From the IMG/VR virus record IMGVR_UViG_2541047786_000001: a stretch of DNA of 40,052 bases, one strand, 5' to 3'. The stretch comes from a virus (Duplodnaviria; Heunggongvirae; Uroviricota; Caudoviricetes). Made by a program: the position numbers and the translations under genes. Positions 13,440 through 40,052 of the stretch are shown here, one piece after another; the stretch's first letter is position 1; each line of letters begins with the position of its first letter. The notes under the pieces are model-generated. The model was not told the DNA's origin, ran no database searches, and worked only from the letters and a program-made list of their open reading frames with translations.

Positions 13440-14522
13440 TTAGAACTGATAAACCAGACCTACAGCGACGATGTCGTCGGTATCAATACCAGCTGTTTTG
13501 GTAAACTTACTATCGTCAATTAAGTTGATTTTGTAATCAACAAAAGTGGACATGTTTTTATTAAAGTAGTAAGTAGCACCGACATCGACATACTTGACTA
13601 AGTCTCGGTCACCATGAACACCAAGGTCTTTACCTTTTGACTGAAGGTAAGCAACAGATGGACGCAGACCGAAGTCAAACTGATATTGTGCTACTGCTTC
13701 AAAGTTTTGTGCTTTGTTTGCAATATGGTTATTACCAAAAACGGTCATATTCTGAGTTTCAGAATATGTGGTAGCCAGATAGATATTGTTCGCATCATAT
13801 TTCAGGCCTGCAGCCCATACTTCCGCATTTTTGCCGGAGGCATTGAATTTGCTCTTACCATAGGCGACCTGACCGTCAGTGCGATCTGATTTAGCATAGG
13901 TTGCACCCACGCCGAATCCTTCATACTCATAAGTAGTGGAGAAACCGAAACCATCACCATTGGCTTCAGTTACGTCAGTGCGGTCATTTTTACCCTGATA
14001 CTGAGCAGCAAAGTTCAGGCCATCGACCAGACCAAAGAAGTCGTTGTTACGATAAGTTGCAACACCAGTAGTGCGACCAGTCATGAACACATCTGTTTGG
14101 GTCCAGGTATCACCACCGAATTCTGGCAGAACGTCAGTCCACGCACCGATGTCGTATGCTACACCGTAGTTACGGCCGTAATCGATTGAGCCGTAATCAC
14201 CAAATTTCAGGCCTGCAAATGCAAGACGGGTTTTGTCTTTGGAAGAACCTTGAGATTCAGCACGGTTGCCTTTGAATTCATATTCCCACTGACCGAAACC
14301 AGTCAGTTGATCGTTGATTTGGGTTTCACCTTTGAAGCCAAGACGGGCATAAGTAGTATCACCATCATCTGCATCATTAGAGGAGAAGTAGTGCTTGGCA
14401 TTAACTTTCCCGTATAGATCCAGCTTGTTACTGTCTTTATTATAAATTTCAGCTGCCTGAGCAGACATCGCCATCAGTACTGATGCAGCTACAGCAGAAA
14501 TTGCCACTGTTAATTTTTTCAT
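13440..14522 (-). CDS. nmpC: Outer-membrane general porin (OmpC/NmpC/Lc family), phage-encoded moron
   Basis: 360 aa from ATG 14522, with signal peptide [23 protein letters not shown] and the C-terminal aromatic residue (VGLVYQF) typical of beta-barrel porins. The 20 extra N-terminal residues of the track ORF are excluded. Same position and orientation relative to Q and the lysis genes as nmpC in DLP12. Confidence 0.9.
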
Positions 14523-14949
14523 TGTACGCCCTTTTTTTGAACTTTTATTAAAAAATGATGTCACTGCGCGATAAATATTCATCTAATCAATGTGATTATT
14601 TCAAGATGTAAGTTTTAGTTTCTCATTTAATTTGTGAAGTAGATCTCTATTTTTATCTGAACCTTTTCTATCTAATCCTATTCATGGCTCTTGTCTGAAC
14701 AAAAATAAATCTATTAGCTAATTTATATTAATGGCACTTATTTATAAGTGCTCTATAATTCTTTAGCTTAATTTAAACAAACTAAAAATAACATCGGAAA
14801 TTATTAACTGGTTATTTGTTGAAGTTTTCTTATGCATTTGTGGTGGTGTTTTGAACACTCGGTGGCATTCTCACAAATATCATTTAGTAGTTTACGTACG
14901 TAAAAAATTGGTTATGCTGTTAAGAGTGGTTACTTCGTCACACAGCTTA

Positions 14950-33869: not shown

Positions 33870-36800
33870 ATGGGTAAAGGCAGCAGTAAGGGGCATACCC
33901 CGCGCGAAGCGAAGGACAACCTGAAATCATCCCAGATGCTGAGCGTGATAGACGCCATCAGCGAAGGGCCGGTTGAAGGTCCGGTGGATGGATTAAAAAG
34001 CGTGCTGCTGAACAGTACGCCGGTGCTGGACAGTGAGGGGAATACCAATATATTCGGCGTCACGGTGGTGTTCCGGGCCGGTGAGCAGGAGCAGACACCG
34101 CCGGAGGGATTTGAATCCTCCGGCTCCGAGACGGTGCTCGGTACAGAAGTGAAATATGACACGCCGATCACCCGGACCATCACGTCGGCAAACATTGACC
34201 GTCTGCGTTTTACTTTCGGCGTGCAGGCACTGGTGGAAACCACCTCAAAGGGGGACAGGAATCCATCGGAAGTCCGCCTGCTGGTTCAGATTCAACGTAA
34301 CGGTGGCTGGGTGACGGAAAAAGACATCACCATTAAGGGCAAAACCACGTCGCAGTATCTGGCCTCGGTGGTGGTGGATAACCTGCCGCCGCGCCCGTTT
34401 AATATCCGGATGCGCAGGATGACGCCGGACAGCACCACAGACCAGTTGCAGAACAAAACGCTCTGGTCGTCATACACCGAAATCATCGATGTGAAACAGT
34501 GCTACCCGAACACGGCACTGGTCGGCGTACAGGTGGACTCGGAGCAGTTCGGCAGCCAGCAGGTGAGCCGTAATTATCATCTTCGCGGGCGCATTCTGCA
34601 GGTGCCGTCGAACTATAACCCGCAGACGCGGCAATACAGCGGTATCTGGGACGGAACGTTTAAGCCAGCATACAGCAACAACATGGCCTGGTGTCTGTGG
34701 GATATGCTGACCCATCCGCGCTACGGCATGGGGAAACGTCTTGGTGCGGCAGATGTGGATAAATGGGCGCTGTATGTCATCGGCCAGAATTGCGACCAGT
34801 CAGTGCCGGACGGCTTTGGCGGCACGGAGCCGCGCATCACCTGTAATGCGTACCTGACCACACAGCGCAAGGCGTGGGATGTGCTCAGTGATTTTTGCTC
34901 GGCGATGCGCTGTATGCCGGTATGGAACGGGCAGACGCTGACATTCGTGCAGGACCGACCGTCGGATAAGGTGTGGACCTATAACCGCAGTAATGTGGTG
35001 ATGCCGGATGATGGCGCGCCGTTCCGCTACAGCTTCAGCGCCCTGAAAGACCGCCATAATGCCGTTGAGGTGAACTGGATTGACCCGGATAACGGCTGGG
35101 AGACGGCGACAGAGCTTGTGGAGGACACGCAGGCCATTGCCCGTTACGGTCGTAACGTCACGAAGATGGATGCCTTTGGCTGTACCAGCCGGGGGCAGGC
35201 ACACCGCGCCGGGCTGTGGCTGATTAAAACGGAGCTGCTGGAAACGCAGACCGTGGACTTCAGCGTGGGTGCAGAAGGGCTTCGCCATGTACCGGGCGAT
35301 GTCATTGAAATCTGTGATGATGACTATGCGGGGATCAGCATCGGCGGGCGCGTGCTGGCGGTGAACAACCAGACGCGGACACTGACGCTCGACCGTGAAA
35401 TCACGCTGCCATCCTCCGGCACCACGCTGATAAGCCTGGCTGACGGACAGGGGAATCCGGTCAGCGTGGAGGTCCAGTCCGTCACCGACGGCGTGAAGGT
35501 AAAAGTGAGCCGTGTTCCTGACGGCGTTGCAGAATACAGCGTGTGGGGGCTGAAGTTGCCAACGTTGCGCCAGCGCCTGTTCCGCTGTGTGAGTATCCGT
35601 GAGAACGATGACGGCACGTATGCCATCACTGCCGTGCAGCATGTACCGGAAAAAGAGGCCATCGTGGATAACGGGGCGCACTTTGACGGCGACCAGAGCG
35701 GCACGGTGAATGGTGTCACGCCGCCAGCGGTGCAGCACCTGACTGCCGAAGTCACCGCAGACAGCGGGGAATATCAGGTGCTGGCGCGCTGGGACACGCC
35801 GAAGGTGGTGAAGGGGGTGAGCTTTATGCTTCGCCTGACCGTGGCAGCGGATGACGGCAGTGAGCGGCTGGTCAGCACGGCCCGGACGACGGAAACCACA
35901 TACCGCTTCAGGCAACTGGCGCTGGGGAACTACAGGCTGACAGTCCGGGCGGTAAATGCGTGGGGGCAGCAGGGCGATCCGGCATCGGTATCGTTCCGGA
36001 TTGCCGCACCGGCAGCGCCGTCGCAGATTGAGCTGACACCGGGGTATTTTCAGATAACCGCCACGCCGCATCTTGCGGTTTATGATCCGACGGTACAGTT
36101 TGAGTTCTGGTTCTCGGAAAAGCGGATTGCGGATATCAGGCAGGTTGAAACCACAGCACGCTATCTTGGCACGGCGCTGTACTGGATAGCCGCCAGTATC
36201 AATATCAAACCGGGCCATGATTATTATTTTTACATCCGCAGTGTGAACACCGTTGGCAAATCGGCATTTGTGGAGGCTGTTGGCCAGCCGAGTGATGATG
36301 CATCCGGCTATCTGAATTTTTTCAAAGGAGAGATAGGGAAAACCCATCTGGCTCAGGAGTTGTGGACGCAGATTGATAACGGTCAGCTTGCGCCTGACCT
36401 GGCTGAAATCAGGACGTCCATTACGGGTGTCAGCAATGAAATCACGCAGACCGTCAATAAGAAACTGGAAGACCAGAGTGCAGCGATCCAGCAGATACAG
36501 AAGGTTCAGGTTGATACAAATAATAACCTGAACAGCATGTGGGCTGTGAAGCTGCAGCAGATGCAGGACGGACGCCTTTATATCGCGGGTATTGGTGCCG
36601 GTGTTGAGAATACTCCTGACGGTATGCAGAGTCAGGTGCTGCTGGCGGCGGACAGGATTGCGATGATTAATCCTGCGAATGGCAACACAAAGCCGATGTT
36701 TGTTGGGCAGGGCGATCAGATATTCATGAACGAAGTGTTCCTGAAATATCTGACGGCTCCCACCATTACCAGCGGTGGCAATCCCCCAACGTTTTCACTG

Positions 36801-37352
36801 ACACCTGATGGTCGACTTTCTGCGAAAAATGCGGATATCAGCGGTAACGTGAACGCGAACTCCGGGACGCTCAACAACGTCACGATTAATCAGAACTGTC
36901 GGATTCTGGGAAAACTGTCAGCTAACCAGATTGAAGGTGATATTGTCAAAACGGTGGGAAAAGCCTTTCCGAGAAATGGCAGTTATGCCAGCGGTACAAT
37001 AACGGTCACTGTGTACGATGACCAGGCTTTTGACCGTCAGATAGTAGTCCCCCCCGTTCTGTTTCGTGGGGGTAAGCATGAAAACTTCAACAGCAACAAC
37101 CAACAGTCATACTGGTATTCAACCTGTAAGCTGCAGGTACTGAAGAACGGACAGGAAATCTTTCAGCAACCCGCGACGGATGTCAGCAGGGTATTTTCAT
37201 CAGTCATTGATATGCCTGCCGGACACGGCCATGTCACCCTGACTTTCAATGTTTCTTCATATGGTGCTAATAACTGGACGCCAACGACCAGTATCAGCGA
37301 CCTTCTTGTTGTTGTGATGAAGAAATCTACAGCCGGTATCAGTATCAGTTGA
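33870..37352 (+). CDS. J: Tail tip / host specificity protein J (central tail fibre)
   Basis: 1160 aa, collinear with lambda gpJ through the conserved N-terminal and fibronectin-like regions. The C-terminal receptor-binding part was not checked for identity to lambda J. Confidence 0.95.
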
Positions 37353-37371
37353 ATTTTATAACCCAGATACG

Positions 37372-37396
37372 GGCGCCAGAAATGGCGCCTTTTTTA
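37372..37396 (+). terminator. Rho-independent terminator after J
   Basis: GGCGCC-agaaat-GGCGCC followed by TTTTTTATTT. Confidence 0.5.
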
Positions 37397-37410
37397 TTTG
37401 TGGAGTGAAT

Positions 37411-39471
37411 ATGGCAGTACAGATTTCAGGCGTGCTGAAAGACGGTGCAGGAAAACCGATACAGAACTGCACCATTCAGCTCAAAGCAAAACGTAACAGC
37501 ACCACGGTTGTGGTGAACACGGTGGCCTCAGAAAATCCGGATGAAGCCGGACGTTACAGCATGGATGTCGAGTATGGCCAGTACAGCGTTATCCTGCTGG
37601 TTGAAGGTTTTCCGCCTTCACATGCCGGGGCCATCACCGTGTATGAGGATTCTAAGCCGGGGACATTGAATGATTTTCTGGGCGCTGCAACAGAAGATGA
37701 TGTTCGTCCGGAGGCACTGTATCGTTTTGAAAAGATGGTGGAAGAGGTGGCACGCAACGCTGAAGCCGCCTCTCAGAGCGCAGCGGCAGCAAAGAAATCA
37801 GAAACAGCAGCGGCATCGTCCAGGAATGCGGCGAAAACATCAGAGACGAATGCAGGTAACAGCGCGAAAGCGGCAGCTTCTTCAAAAACAGCCGCACAAA
37901 ACGCAGCAACAGCGGCAGAACGTTCAGAGACAAATGCCCGTGCGTCAGAAGAAGCCTCCGCAGACAGTGAAGAGGCTTCCCGCCGTAATGCAGAGTCAGC
38001 CGCTGAAAATGCCGGAGTCGCCACCACAAAAGCGCGGGAGGCCGCAGCAGACGCAACAAAGGCCGGGCAGAAAAAGGATGAGGCTCTGTCGGCAGCGACA
38101 CGGGCTGAAAAGGCGGCAGACCGCGCAGAAGTCGCAGCGGAAGTGACTGCAGAGCCCTATGCGAATATAGTGCCGCCGCTGCCTGATGTGTGGATACCGT
38201 TTAACGATTCACTGGATATGATTGCGGGTTTTTCTCCGGGCTATAAAAAAATAGCTATTGGTGACGATGTGGTTCAGGTCGCCAGTGATAAACAGGTTAA
38301 TTTCAGTCGCGCATCAACGGCAACATATATCAACAAATCTGGCGAACTGAAAACGGCGGAAATTAATGAGCCGCGATTTGAGTGTGATGGCCTGCTTATT
38401 GAGGGACAAAGAACGAACTACATGCTCAATTCGGAAAGTCCAGCCAGCTGGGGGAAGTCATCAAACATGGATGTGCCCGAAACCGGGACAGATAGTTTTG
38501 GTTTTACTTATGGAAAGTTTGTCTGCAACGATTCTCTGGTTGGGCAAACTTCGGCTATTAATATGGCATCAATTGCTGCAACAAAGTCAGTTGATGTCTC
38601 AGGCGATAACAAGTACGTGACAACCTCATGCCGTTTTAAAACAGAACGACAGGTAAGGTTACGTATACGGTTTGATAAGTATGATGGTAGTGCAACAACT
38701 TTTCTTGGCGATGCGTACATTGATACGCAAACGCTTGAAATTAATATGACAGGTGGGGCTGCCGGCAGAATTACGGCACGAGTCAGGAAGGATAAGACCA
38801 CAGGCTGGATTTTTGCAGAGGCAACGATTCAGGCAATTGATGGTGAGTTAAAAATAGGCTCTCAGATACAGTATTCTCCTGAGCGGGGTGGGGCAACAGT
38901 ATCTGGTGACTATATTTATCTTGCCACCCCACAAGTAGAGAATGGGCCGTGTGTATCATCATTTATTATTTCAGGAGGCAGCGCAACGACAAGAGCCAGT
39001 GATTTGGTTAGTATCCCCACCAGAAATAATCTTTATAAGTTACCATTTACTTTTTTACTTGAGATTCATAAAAACTGGGATATTGCACCAAACGCCGCAC
39101 CCCGCGTGTGGGATATAGCAGCAGCCAATACCGGGCAATCAGCAATTGCAGCAATCAACAGAGGTAGTGGTAAGTTATATATGAGTCTGTCAAACCCTTC
39201 AGGCTTGTATGTTAATAGCGCAGCGACAGATGTATTTGCAGAGAAAACCACATTTGGATGTATTGCAAAAGCTGATGGTCACTTTCATGTGGTGACAAAT
39301 GGTAAAGCGGTTAATGAAGTTTATTGTGAATATAATGGTGTGACCGCTGATAAAAATATCCGATTTGGAGGGCAGACGAATACTGGAGAACGACATCTGT
39401 TTGGCCATATTCGCAATTTCCGCATATGGCATAAAGAATTAAATGACAGGCAATTAAAAGAGGTCGTATGA
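37411..39471 (+). CDS. stf: Side tail fibre protein (lambda Stf-like N-terminus, Ala/Ser-rich coiled region, distinct C-terminal domain)
   Basis: Start MAVQISGVLKDGAGKPIQNCTIQLKAKRNSTTVVVNT… matches the lambda Stf N-terminus, with GGAG 5 nt upstream. The C-terminal ~300 aa (…FGHIRNFRIWHKELNDRQLKEV) is unlike lambda Stf and may be a lectin/jelly-roll-like fold. Confidence 0.85.
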   Translation: MAVQISGVLKDGAGKPIQNCTIQLKAKRNSTTVVVNTVASENPDEAGRYSMDVEYGQYSVILLVEGFPPSHAGAITVYEDSKPGTLNDFLGAATEDDVRPEALYRFEKMVEEVARNAEAASQSAAAAKKSETAAASSRNAAKTSETNAGNSAKAAASSKTAAQNAATAAERSETNARASEEASADSEEASRRNAESAAENAGVATTKAREAAADATKAGQKKDEALSAATRAEKAADRAEVAAEVTAEPYANIVPPLPDVWIPFNDSLDMIAGFSPGYKKIAIGDDVVQVASDKQVNFSRASTATYINKSGELKTAEINEPRFECDGLLIEGQRTNYMLNSESPASWGKSSNMDVPETGTDSFGFTYGKFVCNDSLVGQTSAINMASIAATKSVDVSGDNKYVTTSCRFKTERQVRLRIRFDKYDGSATTFLGDAYIDTQTLEINMTGGAAGRITARVRKDKTTGWIFAEATIQAIDGELKIGSQIQYSPERGGATVSGDYIYLATPQVENGPCVSSFIISGGSATTRASDLVSIPTRNNLYKLPFTFLLEIHKNWDIAPNAAPRVWDIAAANTGQSAIAAINRGSGKLYMSLSNPSGLYVNSAATDVFAEKTTFGCIAKADGHFHVVTNGKAVNEVYCEYNGVTADKNIRFGGQTNTGERHLFGHIRNFRIWHKELNDRQLKEVV

Positions 39472-39746
39472 AAGATTTAACTTTGAAGTTTCATGACAAA
39501 CTGCAGTTTAAGGCCTTCCTGTCATCTCTTGACTGGGAGGAGGATGAAGACCTCCAGAATAAACTGTTAGTCGATGAAATTGGTTTCACCTACACAGAAA
39601 CAGGGGTAACAGAAGAGGGAGAACCTGTCTGTGTCCGGAATGACGGTTATTTTGTCAACATTCGCATTCTTGATGACTTGTTTGATGTTTCTGTATTCTC
39701 TGATTATGTCGTGGAGCTGGAAACACCGCTTCGGGAATGGAGCTGA
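39468..39746 (+). CDS. Hypothetical acidic protein, translationally coupled to stf (candidate fibre chaperone/accessory)
   Basis: 92-aa ORF whose ATG overlaps the stf stop (ATGA). Acidic (DWEEDEDLQ…). Not Tfa-like. Confidence 0.5.
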   Translation: MKDLTLKFHDKLQFKAFLSSLDWEEDEDLQNKLLVDEIGFTYTETGVTEEGEPVCVRNDGYFVNIRILDDLFDVSVFSDYVVELETPLREWS

Positions 39747-39758
39747 AAGGAGGAAATA

Positions 39759-40052
39759 ATGGATATAAGCCCCTTACTTCATGCGCTTTGTGCTGTGGCT
39801 GCGCAGATACTGGTTGGTCTTTTTACCGGAAACTGGGCTTACGGAGCGATAGCCGGTTGTACGTTCTTCATTGCGCGTGAACATACCCAGGCAGAATATC
39901 GCTGGATTGAAATGTTCGGGCATGGCAAGCGAATGAATATGCCGTGGTGGGGCGGTTTTGATCCGCGAGCTTGGGATGTGGCAAGCCTGATGGATTTTGC
40001 TGTGCCGGTGGTGGCGTGTCTGCTGGTCTGGCTGTTGGTTAATCGTGGGTGA
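39759..40052 (+). CDS. Hypothetical small membrane protein
   Basis: 97-aa ORF with stop TGA at the window edge and GGAGG-like AAAGGAGG upstream. Two to three hydrophobic segments (LLHALCAVAAQILVGLF, FAVPVVACLLVWLLV). Confidence 0.5.
   Translation: MDISPLLHALCAVAAQILVGLFTGNWAYGAIAGCTFFIAREHTQAEYRWIEMFGHGKRMNMPWWGGFDPRAWDVASLMDFAVPVVACLLVWLLVNRG

What the first reader, a model, noticed from the sequence alone, without database searches (positions are those of the whole stretch)
37411..40052. Side tail fibre with lambda-like N-terminus but a different C-terminal domain, followed by two small unknown ORFs instead of a recognisable Tfa chaperone
The first ~90 residues of the 686-aa fibre match lambda Stf (the shaft attachment region). 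They are followed by a long Ala/Ser/Glu-rich low-complexity region and a C-terminal domain unlike lambda Stf. Downstream, where lambda has tfa, there is a 92-aa acidic ORF translationally coupled to stf (ATGA) and a 97-aa hydrophobic ORF. Lambda lom is absent between J and stf. This looks like a modular swap of the receptor-binding tip, possibly with a new chaperone.
Basis: partly seen in the sequence, partly recalled or inferred. Interest (0 to 1): 0.5.

Follow-up and report, generated by a model that had tools for sequence, protein, structure and literature searches.

The report
Lambdoid side fibre with lectin-like tip
This prophage carries a lambda-type side tail fibre whose tip has been exchanged for a sugar-binding-type module that always travels with a small acidic partner protein of unknown function; the sequence is already known (phage 21) and common in E. 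coli, so it is a tidy, mostly ordinary case of tail-fibre mosaicism with one uncharacterised accessory gene.

Summary
Three ORFs lie where stated: stf (37411-39471, 686 aa), orf92 (39468-39746, ATGA overlap) and orf97 (39759-40052). There is no lom. The region is 100% identical to phage 21 and ev017 and occurs in about 450 of 5,426 complete E. coli genomes.

The Stf N-terminus and Ala-rich shaft are lambda-like. The last 436 aa are unrelated to lambda's tip. They hold a conserved junction, a domain homologous to the capsule-binding RcGTA head-spike fibre, and a LamG/ConA-like domain, the latter two each with a hypervariable core. GC falls from 55% to 43% across this tip plus orf92.

orf92 follows this tip, abutting or overlapping the fibre gene, in every cassette examined: lambdoids, T1-like, T5-like, Dhillonvirus, Nonagvirus and rV5-like phages. 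It is under purifying selection, folds confidently, and resembles no Tfa or other known chaperone. I read it as a tip-specific assembly partner. That function is inferred, not shown.

Many relatives carry a third gene after orf92, a second fibre with a conserved N-terminal motif and an S74 self-chaperone. It is missing here.

orf97 is an independent small membrane protein, also found behind a tailspike gene and a tail-fibre assembly gene in two unrelated temperate phages.

The parts
37371..37397 (+). Terminator-like hairpin plus T-run in the 58-nt J-stf spacer. lom is absent here.
   Evidence: Pattern scan. Annotated as a terminator in phage 21. It matches a consensus only; function was not shown.
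37411..39471 (+). stf, side tail fibre gene, 686 aa.
   Evidence: ORF. 100% identical to phage 21 CPT_21_22 'side tail fiber'. PHROG 1419.
37411..37692 (+). StfN collar domain (aa 1-94), the part that docks the fibre on the tail tip.
   Evidence: PF08400 at 230 bits. E = 1.4e-49 to lambda Stf residues 1-94 in PDB 9E7M. The role of this collar in Ur-lambda is described in PMC12617516.
37693..38160 (+). Linker and Ala-rich shaft (aa 95-250), shorter than lambda's; inferred to be a trimeric coiled coil.
   Evidence: 53% identity to lambda Stf 239-345. Composition 33% Ala, 14% Glu, 10% Ser. Coiled-coil assignment is by homology to the lambda proximal coiled coil.
38161..38430 (+). Conserved junction (aa 251-340), motif PLPDVWIPFNDSLDM...RASTATYINKSG...PRFE.DGLLIEGQRTN. 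It is the most conserved part of the tip across phage families.
   Evidence: Alignment A4. 57-92% identity where the variable cores have only 20-30%.
38299..39039 (+). C1 (aa 297-543): domain homologous to the RcGTA head-spike fibre, with a hypervariable core at about aa 341-500.
   Evidence: NCBIfam NF048003, 55.3 bits against a cut-off of 36. Rcc01080 (PDB 6TB9) E = 1.4e-9 with the single sequence and 1.2e-17 with the profile. Sf11 Dit gp17 C-terminal appendage E = 2.4e-4.
39088..39468 (+). C2 (aa 560-686): LamG / ConA-like domain with a hypervariable core (about aa 551-645) and a conserved end, GGQT..G.RHLFGHIRNFRIWHKEL.D.Q.
39468..39746 (+). orf92: acidic 92-aa protein, start abutting or overlapping the stf stop here and in relatives. 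Proposed tip-specific assembly partner.
   Evidence: PHROG 1361, unknown function. Invariant synteny. dN/dS 0.13-0.41. AF2 pLDDT 90. No convincing structural relative. GC 43%, like the tip.
39747..39753 (+). Shine-Dalgarno sequence AAGGAGG for orf97.
   Evidence: Read from the sequence.
39759..40052 (+). orf97: small membrane protein with two hydrophobic segments. A moron-like passenger, not part of the fibre cassette.
   Evidence: PHROG 1443, unknown function. Hydropathy. Found only in temperate phages, including after a P22-like tailspike gene and the phiHAP-1 tail-fibre assembly gene, neither of which has this cassette. GC 53%.

Best explanation
The region encodes a mosaic side tail fibre.

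Shown by homology: residues 1-94 form the lambda-type collar that fixes the fibre to the tail tip, and residues about 100-250 form a shortened lambda-type trimeric coiled-coil shaft.

Shown by sequence: lambda has a gp37-like, OmpC-binding tip that needs Tfa. This fibre instead ends in a horizontally acquired, lower-GC cassette. The cassette has a conserved junction, a domain of the RcGTA head-spike-fibre family (whose Rhodobacter member binds capsule), and a LamG/ConA-like beta-sandwich. The last two each have a hypervariable core inside a conserved frame.

Inferred:
- The tip is a lectin-type binder of a surface polysaccharide (O-antigen, capsule or LPS core). It would give reversible first contact before J engages its receptor. 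Specificity would be changed by recombination of the two variable cores.
- orf92 belongs to the same cassette, and its start abuts or overlaps the fibre stop, as in translationally coupled genes. It is a cytoplasmic, acidic, well-folded protein that acts on the conserved framework of this tip, either as a folding or trimerisation chaperone or as a subunit that stays bound.

Shown by comparison: many relatives have a third gene after orf92. It encodes a second fibre (StfB) with a conserved N-terminal docking-type motif and its own S74 intramolecular chaperone, which suggests a branched fibre. This window has the reduced, unbranched form.

Shown by distribution: orf97 is a separate small membrane protein of temperate phages. 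Function inferred: a conversion or exclusion type moron.
For: Identity and frequency.

Collar and shaft homology.

Tip domains:
- NF048003 above its cut-off.
- Rcc01080 E = 1e-9 with the single sequence and 1e-17 with the profile.
- Laminin_G_3 in 12 of 15 members, and CBM_4_9 in one.
- Capsule binding by Rcc01080 is reported in PMC10218006.

Cassette boundaries: GC is 55% in the N-terminal part and shaft, 43.5% in the tip, 42.7% in orf92 and 53% in orf97. The same tip sits on other N-termini.

Hypervariable cores at 20-30% identity inside conserved frames.

orf92:
- It lies directly after the tip in 86 of 86 loci and in 80 of 80 loci chosen only by the StfB motif.
- It is also there in tonn, IrisVonRoten, SP15, JenP1, rolling and CarlMeissner, always overlapping or within 2 nt of the fibre stop.
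- dN/dS is 0.13-0.41.
- It is kept in cassettes that lack StfB.
- AF2 pLDDT is 90.

StfB: conserved N-terminal motif and Peptidase_S74 domain.

orf97 independence.
Against: - No experiment or complex model links orf92 physically to the tip.
- orf92 does not co-vary with the hypervariable cores. It is 93-96% identical next to cores that are only 25-28% identical. It is therefore not a specificity-matched chaperone like gp38.
- Rcc01080 has only the C1-type domain. It was purified from E. coli and bound cells without any partner, so C1 alone may not need orf92.
- Cyanophage S-CAM4 has two stand-alone C1-C2 homologues with no detectable orf92 homologue downstream.
- The AF2 model of the tip is poor (pLDDT 52). 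LamG scores just under Pfam's cut-off.
- The receptor is unknown. Nothing shows that phage 21 or ev017 virions actually carry these fibres.
Confidence: 0.55

Rival explanations
1. orf92 is a structural adaptor that docks the second fibre StfB onto the first (a branch-point protein), not a chaperone. In this window, where StfB is missing, it would be a leftover or would serve another role.
Against: orf92 is retained under purifying selection in at least three cassette types that lack StfB: the phage 21 type, the ev243 type and rV5-like CarlMeissner. There is no visible co-variation between the orf92 C-terminus and the StfB N-terminus. The conserved junction of Stf itself is an equally good docking candidate.
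Confidence: 0.2
2. The C-terminal module is an enzyme (a ConA-fold glycanase or depolymerase) that cuts surface polysaccharide, rather than a lectin.
Against: The best hits are non-catalytic modules: CBM40, the AbnA binding domain, neurotoxin Hc-N, pentraxins and LamG. One family member hits CBM_4_9. The characterised relative Rcc01080 is reported as a binder. The model used is low confidence, and no catalytic motif was identified.
Confidence: 0.12
3. orf92 has nothing to do with fibre assembly. It is a hitch-hiking small gene (for example a host-takeover, anti-defence or regulatory protein) that is merely linked to the tip.
For: There is no detectable homology to any chaperone. It does not co-vary with the receptor-binding cores.
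Against: Linkage survives transfer between at least six unrelated phage groups, with overlapping or abutting stop and start codons each time. A passenger gene would be expected to be lost or exchanged. It shares the tip's GC content. There is no PADLOC hit.
Confidence: 0.08
4. orf97 is the functional counterpart of Tfa, or a membrane-bound assembly factor for this fibre.
For: Its position is directly after orf92 with a strong Shine-Dalgarno sequence. In phiHAP-1 a homologue overlaps the tail-fibre assembly gene.
Against: It is absent from all lytic phages that have the cassette. It is present behind a P22-like tailspike gene that has no such tip. It is separated from StfB by a terminator-like hairpin in PhiR63_1. 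Its GC content is host-like. It is predicted to be a membrane protein, whereas fibres fold in the cytoplasm.
Confidence: 0.05

Closest known systems
Phage lambda (Ur-lambda) Stf/Tfa side tail fibre
   Same: The same collar domain and linker (88% identity over residues 1-94 with the PDB 9E7M chain; 74% over residues 1-158 with lambda orf-401). A homologous coiled-coil shaft. The same genomic position after J. A small gene immediately downstream of the fibre gene.
   Different: The distal half is unrelated: no gp37-like tip and no similarity to orf-314. The downstream gene is not a Tfa/Caudo_TAP protein. lom is absent. The shaft is about 150 residues shorter. The predicted ligand is a glycan rather than OmpC.
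RcGTA head-spike fibre Rcc01080 (GhsB), NCBIfam NF048003
   Same: Stf residues 297-543 are homologous, sharing the conserved frame motifs RA..ATY...PR(F/Y)...LL.E...TN and Q.E.G...SS.I.T....TRA.D. The Rhodobacter protein binds capsular polysaccharide.
   Different: Rcc01080 is a 325-aa head decoration anchored by its N-terminal 10 residues to a pentameric base. It has no LamG domain, no coiled-coil shaft and no reported orf92-like partner. Its fold has not been solved experimentally.
Lateral tail fibre loci of T5-like, T1-like, Dhillonvirus, Nonagvirus and rV5-like coliphages (for example IrisVonRoten bas32_0022-0024, tonn_58-60, JenP1 gp23-25)
   Same: The same tip (36-71% identity), the same small acidic gene (29-57% identity) and the same overlapping or abutting stop and start arrangement. 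These are the true family of this cassette.
   Different: Those fibres have other N-terminal attachment domains. The siphovirus loci carry the third gene StfB, which this window lacks (rV5-like CarlMeissner also lacks it). None has been characterised functionally, as far as I could find.
Branched LtfA/LtfB fibres of T5-like phage DT57C
   Same: The concept of a second fibre attached to the first. StfB of the relatives ends in a Peptidase_S74 intramolecular chaperone, as do LtfA and LtfB.
   Different: DT57C LtfA itself ends in an S74 domain, not a lectin-like tip, and no small intervening gene is described. This window has no second fibre.
Tail-fibre chaperones and adhesins (lambda/P2/Mu Tfa, T4 gp38, gp57A)
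   Same: A small protein encoded right after the fibre gene and expected to act on its C-terminal part.
   Different: No sequence or fold similarity. It is half the size of Tfa. Unlike gp38-type adhesins, it does not co-vary with the receptor-binding segments.

Membership tests
Lambda-type side tail fibre (Stf) | N-terminal collar domain (PF08400 / StfN) that docks on the tail tip | tested here: met
   PF08400 at 230 bits. E = 1.4e-49 to lambda StfN in 9E7M. 74% identity over 158 aa.
Lambda-type side tail fibre (Stf) | Ala-rich trimeric coiled-coil shaft after the collar | tested here: met
   53% identity over 107 aa to the lambda shaft. Composition. The trimeric state is inferred from lambda.
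Lambda-type side tail fibre (Stf) | gp37-like distal tip homologous to lambda orf-314 | tested here: not met
   No alignment better than E = 1.2.
Tfa / Caudo_TAP tail-fibre assembly proteins (PF02413) | Sequence or fold similarity of the downstream small protein to Tfa | tested here: not met
GTA head-spike fibre domain (NCBIfam NF048003) | Score above the curated cut-off, and homology to Rcc01080 | tested here: met
   55.3 bits against a cut-off of 36. Rcc01080 E = 1.4e-9 with the single sequence and 1.2e-17 with the profile.
GTA head-spike fibre domain (NCBIfam NF048003) | Binding of surface polysaccharide | not testable with these tools
   Known only for Rcc01080 (PMC10218006).
LamG / ConA-like lectin (PF13385 Laminin_G_3) | Pfam score above the gathering threshold | tested here: inconclusive
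Intramolecular-chaperone fibres (Peptidase_S74, PF13884) | C-terminal S74 autoproteolytic chaperone domain | tested here: not met
   Absent from Stf. Present only in StfB of relatives.
Branched two-protein lateral fibre (StfA-orf92-StfB cassette; DT57C-like concept) | Second fibre gene with the conserved N-terminal motif T.IP.DI..LK after the small gene | tested here: not met
   No motif or similarity anywhere in the window. orf92 is followed after 12 nt by orf97.
orf92 family (PHROG 1361) | Profile match, and position directly after a C1-C2 fibre tip | tested here: met
   PHROG 1361 E = 8e-42. Position conserved in all loci.
Superinfection-exclusion lipoproteins (Cor/Llp type), considered for orf97 | Lipoprotein signal peptide with a lipobox; blocks a receptor | tested here: inconclusive
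   An IAGC string sits at residues 31-34, but the N-terminal region has no basic residues. The phage 21 annotation instead reports a signal sequence and 2 TMDs. No family hit. Function is not testable here.

The most novel reading that the evidence does not exclude
orf92 founds a previously unrecognised family of tail-fibre accessory proteins, acting as a chaperone or as a retained adaptor. It is dedicated to a lectin-like (GTA head-spike plus LamG) fibre tip. Together with StfB it forms a portable, often branched, receptor-binding cassette that moves between temperate lambdoids, T1-like, T5-like, Dhillonvirus and Nonagvirus phages and rV5-like myoviruses. This prophage shows the minimal two-gene form of the cassette.
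Probability: 0.45. Interest if true: 0.55.

Novelty: new variant of a known kind. Interest (0 to 1): 0.38.

Why it matters
Side and lateral fibres decide which strains a phage can reach through O-antigen or capsule, and they are the parts exchanged when host range is engineered (for example lambda-based delivery particles). This cassette is present in about 8% of complete E. coli genomes and in at least six phage groups, yet neither its ligand nor its small partner has been studied. If orf92 is required for assembly, any graft of this tip onto another fibre would have to carry orf92 with it. The conserved junction (aa 251-340) would be the natural splice point. The StfB motif would define a ready-made site for adding a second specificity. 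If orf92 is dispensable, the finding reduces to an ordinary example of fibre mosaicism.

Tried and rejected
- Both PDB entries with homologous sequences, 6TB9 (Rcc01080) and 9OCC (Sf11 gp17), leave the homologous region unmodelled. No experimental fold exists for it.
- The afdb50 fold library was unavailable.
- The word-based homologue search for orf92 reached only E. coli and Shigella. tblastn and the representative library reached further.
- The orf92 profile hit several giant PKD or TPR repeat proteins, with many short stretches in each. I judged these probable artefacts of summed weak repeat matches, because the orf92 model is alpha/beta, not PKD-like. I did not follow them further.
- I considered DT57C LtfA/LtfB as a direct homologue and rejected it. 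Those fibres end in S74 domains, and no small gene is described between them.
- Distance correlation between orf92 and the Stf segments gave Spearman 0.20-0.59, best with the junction. This is too weak, and too confounded by linkage, to assign an interface.
- Literature searches for the phage 21 side tail fibre and for LamG side fibres found nothing. The two BASEL papers do not discuss this tip.
- PADLOC gave no hit for orf92 or orf97.
- There is no orf92 homologue next to the cyanophage S-CAM4 C1-C2 homologues.
Full report
**What is there**

ORF listing and direct reading confirm three co-directional genes after J, which spans 33870-37352:
- stf, 37411-39471, 686 aa.
- orf92, 39468-39746. Its ATG overlaps the stf stop as ATGA.
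- orf97, 39759-40052, with AAGGAGG six nucleotides upstream.

The J-stf spacer is 58 nt. It holds only a terminator-like hairpin and no lom. orf92 is acidic (pI 4.10). orf97 has two hydrophobic segments.

The 2.75-kb region is 100% identical to Escherichia phage 21 (OL657228) and to phage ev017. In phage 21 the genes are annotated 'side tail fiber', 'hypothetical protein' and 'putative membrane protein'. At least 80% of the region is present in 450 of 5,426 complete E. coli genomes. The window as a whole is an ev017/PhiR57_1-like prophage running from int to orf97. In phage 21 and in the E. coli chromosome examined (ATCC 11775), sitDCBA follows orf97.

**Anatomy of Stf**

- Residues 1-131 match PF08400. 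Residues 1-94 match the lambda Stf collar domain solved in 9E7M, E = 1.4e-49.
- Against lambda orf-401, identity is 74% over residues 1-158. The Ala/Glu/Ser-rich stretch (33% Ala) aligns a second time with the lambda shaft at 53% identity. This 'low-complexity' region is therefore the homologue of lambda's proximal trimeric coiled coil, which was described for Ur-lambda. Here it is about 150 residues shorter.
- From residue 251 onward there is no similarity to lambda orf-314.
- Residues 329-529 match NCBIfam NF048003, 'phage head spike fiber domain', at 55 bits against a cut-off of 36.
- Residues 297-543 align with the RcGTA head-spike fibre Rcc01080, E = 1.4e-9. With a 15-sequence profile this improves to 1.2e-17.
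- The profile also detects the unexplained C-terminal appendage of the Sf11 distal tail protein gp17, E = 2.4e-4.
- Rcc01080 binds the Rhodobacter capsule. Only its first 10 residues are resolved in the PDB entries.
- Residues 560-681 match Laminin_G_3 just below threshold. 12 of 15 relatives match it, and one matches CBM_4_9.

**The tip is a mobile cassette**

- GC is 55% in J and in the collar and shaft, 43.5% in the tip, 42.7% in orf92, and 53% again in orf97.
- tblastn finds the tip in 230 phage records. These include Drexlerviridae, Tequintavirus, Dhillonvirus, Nonagvirus and Vequintavirus.
- Protein searches show the tip joined to other N-terminal domains, PF12571 and PF03406.
- Within the tip, the junction (aa 251-340) is 57-92% identical across families. 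Two cores (about aa 341-500 and 551-645) fall to 20-30% and are exchanged independently. This is the pattern expected of receptor-binding surfaces held in a conserved frame.

**orf92**

- It belongs to PHROG 1361, function unknown. It has no Pfam, NCBIfam or PADLOC match and no similarity to lambda Tfa.
- Homologues occur in 145 phage records at E <= 1e-3. In every row listed that carries annotation for the spot they underlie or abut a tail-fibre gene. More divergent forms follow the tip in rV5-like CarlMeissner (41% identity) and in SP15 (29%).
- In 86 of 86 fetched loci the gene lies directly after a fibre gene with the C1-C2 tip. The stop and start codons overlap or lie within 2 nt in all lineages inspected.
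- dN/dS against the window copy is 0.13-0.41.
- The AF2 model is confident (pLDDT 90). It is a beta-alpha-alpha-beta4 fold with a conserved C-terminal tail, PLREW.
- A scan of 1.8 billion representative proteins finds 81 clusters. Nearly all are 85-110 aa stand-alone proteins. None is a fusion to a fibre protein.
- orf92 does not co-vary with the hypervariable cores. It is 93-96% identical next to cores of 25-28% identity. If it binds the tip, it binds the conserved frame.

**A third gene in relatives**

In tonn, IrisVonRoten, SP15, JenP1, rolling (unannotated there), L086, PhiR63_1 and IdasGreatGrand, a gene starts 10-13 nt after orf92.
- Its products are 224-582 aa and share only their first roughly 15 residues, M.T.T.IP.DI..LK. 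Each of the five products scanned (tonn, IrisVonRoten, JenP1, PhiR63_1, IdasGreatGrand) carries a C-terminal Peptidase_S74 intramolecular chaperone domain.
- I selected 80 IMG/VR loci by that motif alone. All 80 have an orf92 homologue immediately upstream and a C1-C2 fibre before that.
- This is the signature of a branched fibre in which a self-chaperoning second fibre (StfB) docks through a conserved N-terminus.
- The window has no trace of StfB. The ev243-type lambdoids and CarlMeissner also lack it, yet all keep orf92.
- Because orf92 tracks the tip and not StfB, I rank 'assembly partner of the tip' above 'adaptor for StfB'.

**orf97**

It belongs to PHROG 1443, function unknown.
- It accompanies the cassette only in temperate phages.
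- It also occurs without the cassette: after the tailspike gene of the P22-like phage Gally, after the tail-fibre assembly gene of Halomonas phiHAP-1, and in an Aeromonas phage.
- In PhiR63_1 a terminator-like hairpin separates it from StfB.
- I regard it as an independent moron-type membrane protein. Its function is unknown, with exclusion or conversion as a guess.

**Limits**

- Nothing here shows that orf92 touches Stf, that the tip binds a glycan, or that virions carry the fibre.
- Rcc01080 folds without a partner.
- The cyanophage S-CAM4 C1-C2 homologues lack a detectable orf92 neighbour.
- The loci from IMG/VR are dominated by closely related E. coli prophages. The large counts are therefore not independent events. 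The independent support comes from the roughly nine distinct phage lineages.

**Verdict**

The 'modular tip swap' is well supported. The 'new chaperone' is a reasonable but untested reading for orf92 and is wrong for orf97. The sequence itself is already known and common. The modest novelty lies in the invariant tip-orf92 pairing and the optional StfB branch, which I could not find described in the literature searched.

Noticed in passing
L003:5120-5794, L004:5289-7013, L092:4599-5654, L093:4605-6353, L094:3792-4832, L095:3792-4496, L091 about 4560 onward: A second fibre gene (StfB) follows orf92 in many relatives. It has a conserved N-terminal motif, M.T.T.IP.DI..LK, and a C-terminal Peptidase_S74 domain. 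In phage rolling it is unannotated at the end of the record. It is absent from the window.
   Followed up: yes
L006:3335-5965 (phage 4A7; also 1W, 3W, Lambda_4C10); E. coli FDAARGOS_1301 hit H26: Insertion sequences (three transposase ORFs in 4A7; an IS3-family element in FDAARGOS_1301) interrupt the 3' end of this stf in several phages and prophages, separating it from orf92. This suggests recurrent inactivation of the fibre in lysogens.
   Followed up: partly
L002:6112-8168 (E. coli ATCC 11775, NZ_CP033092.2): The DNA is 100% identical to the intact 686-aa ORF, yet RefSeq annotates only a 'partial' N-terminal pseudogene here. Other genomes carry two separate names for the one gene (N-terminal domain protein and head spike fiber domain protein). 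This looks like an annotation artefact of the mosaic architecture.
   Followed up: no
PDB 9OCC chain C (Shigella phage Sf11 Dit gp17, residues 264-412): The large C-terminal appendage of the Sf11 distal tail protein, described by its authors as of unknown function and left unmodelled, is distantly homologous to the C1 (GTA head-spike-like) domain (profile E = 2.4e-4). This suggests it is a glycan-binding decoration.
   Followed up: partly
L176:2914-6027 (Synechococcus phage S-CAM4): Two tandem stand-alone proteins (434 and 427 aa) are homologous to the whole C1-C2 tip but have no fibre shaft. The next gene encodes 163 aa and has no sequence similarity to orf92. However, the BFVD fold search with orf92 returned a 164-aa protein of cyanophage S-CBWM1 (TM 0.53). 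This may be a remote structural counterpart.
   Followed up: partly
P0183, P0194, P0213, P0214, P0220, P0225, P0227, P0230, P0234: The orf92 profile hits very large PKD-repeat or TPR/CHAT proteins through many short repeated stretches (E down to 1.6e-15). These are probably summed weak matches rather than homology, but this is unexplained.
   Followed up: partly
window 13440-14582 (-): A 380-aa ORF in the late-regulatory/lysis part of the prophage corresponds to the porin gene annotated in ev017 and PhiR57_1 (NmpC/OmpD/OmpC-like). It is a known type of lambdoid moron.
   Followed up: no
L001:8845-12294 (phage 21), just beyond the window end: In phage 21, 4A7 and the chromosomal copy in E. coli ATCC 11775, the iron/manganese transporter operon sitDCBA lies on the opposite strand directly after orf97. 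The window stops exactly at the orf97 stop codon, as do many IMG/VR prophage calls.
   Followed up: no
L094:4833-4874 (PhiR63_1): A GC-rich hairpin plus T-run (GGGGCCGAGCGCCCC-TTTTATT) lies between StfB and orf97. This suggests orf97 can be a transcription unit separate from the fibre genes. The hairpin is absent from the window and from IdasGreatGrand.
   Followed up: no
L005:3998-4100 (CarlMeissner) compared with window 38161-38430: The rV5-like tip, which lacks StfB, also has two deletions in the otherwise conserved junction (it loses DMITGFSPGYK and a PSDK-containing segment). The phage 21 type lacks StfB but keeps the junction intact. This is a possible hint to where StfB docks.
   Followed up: no
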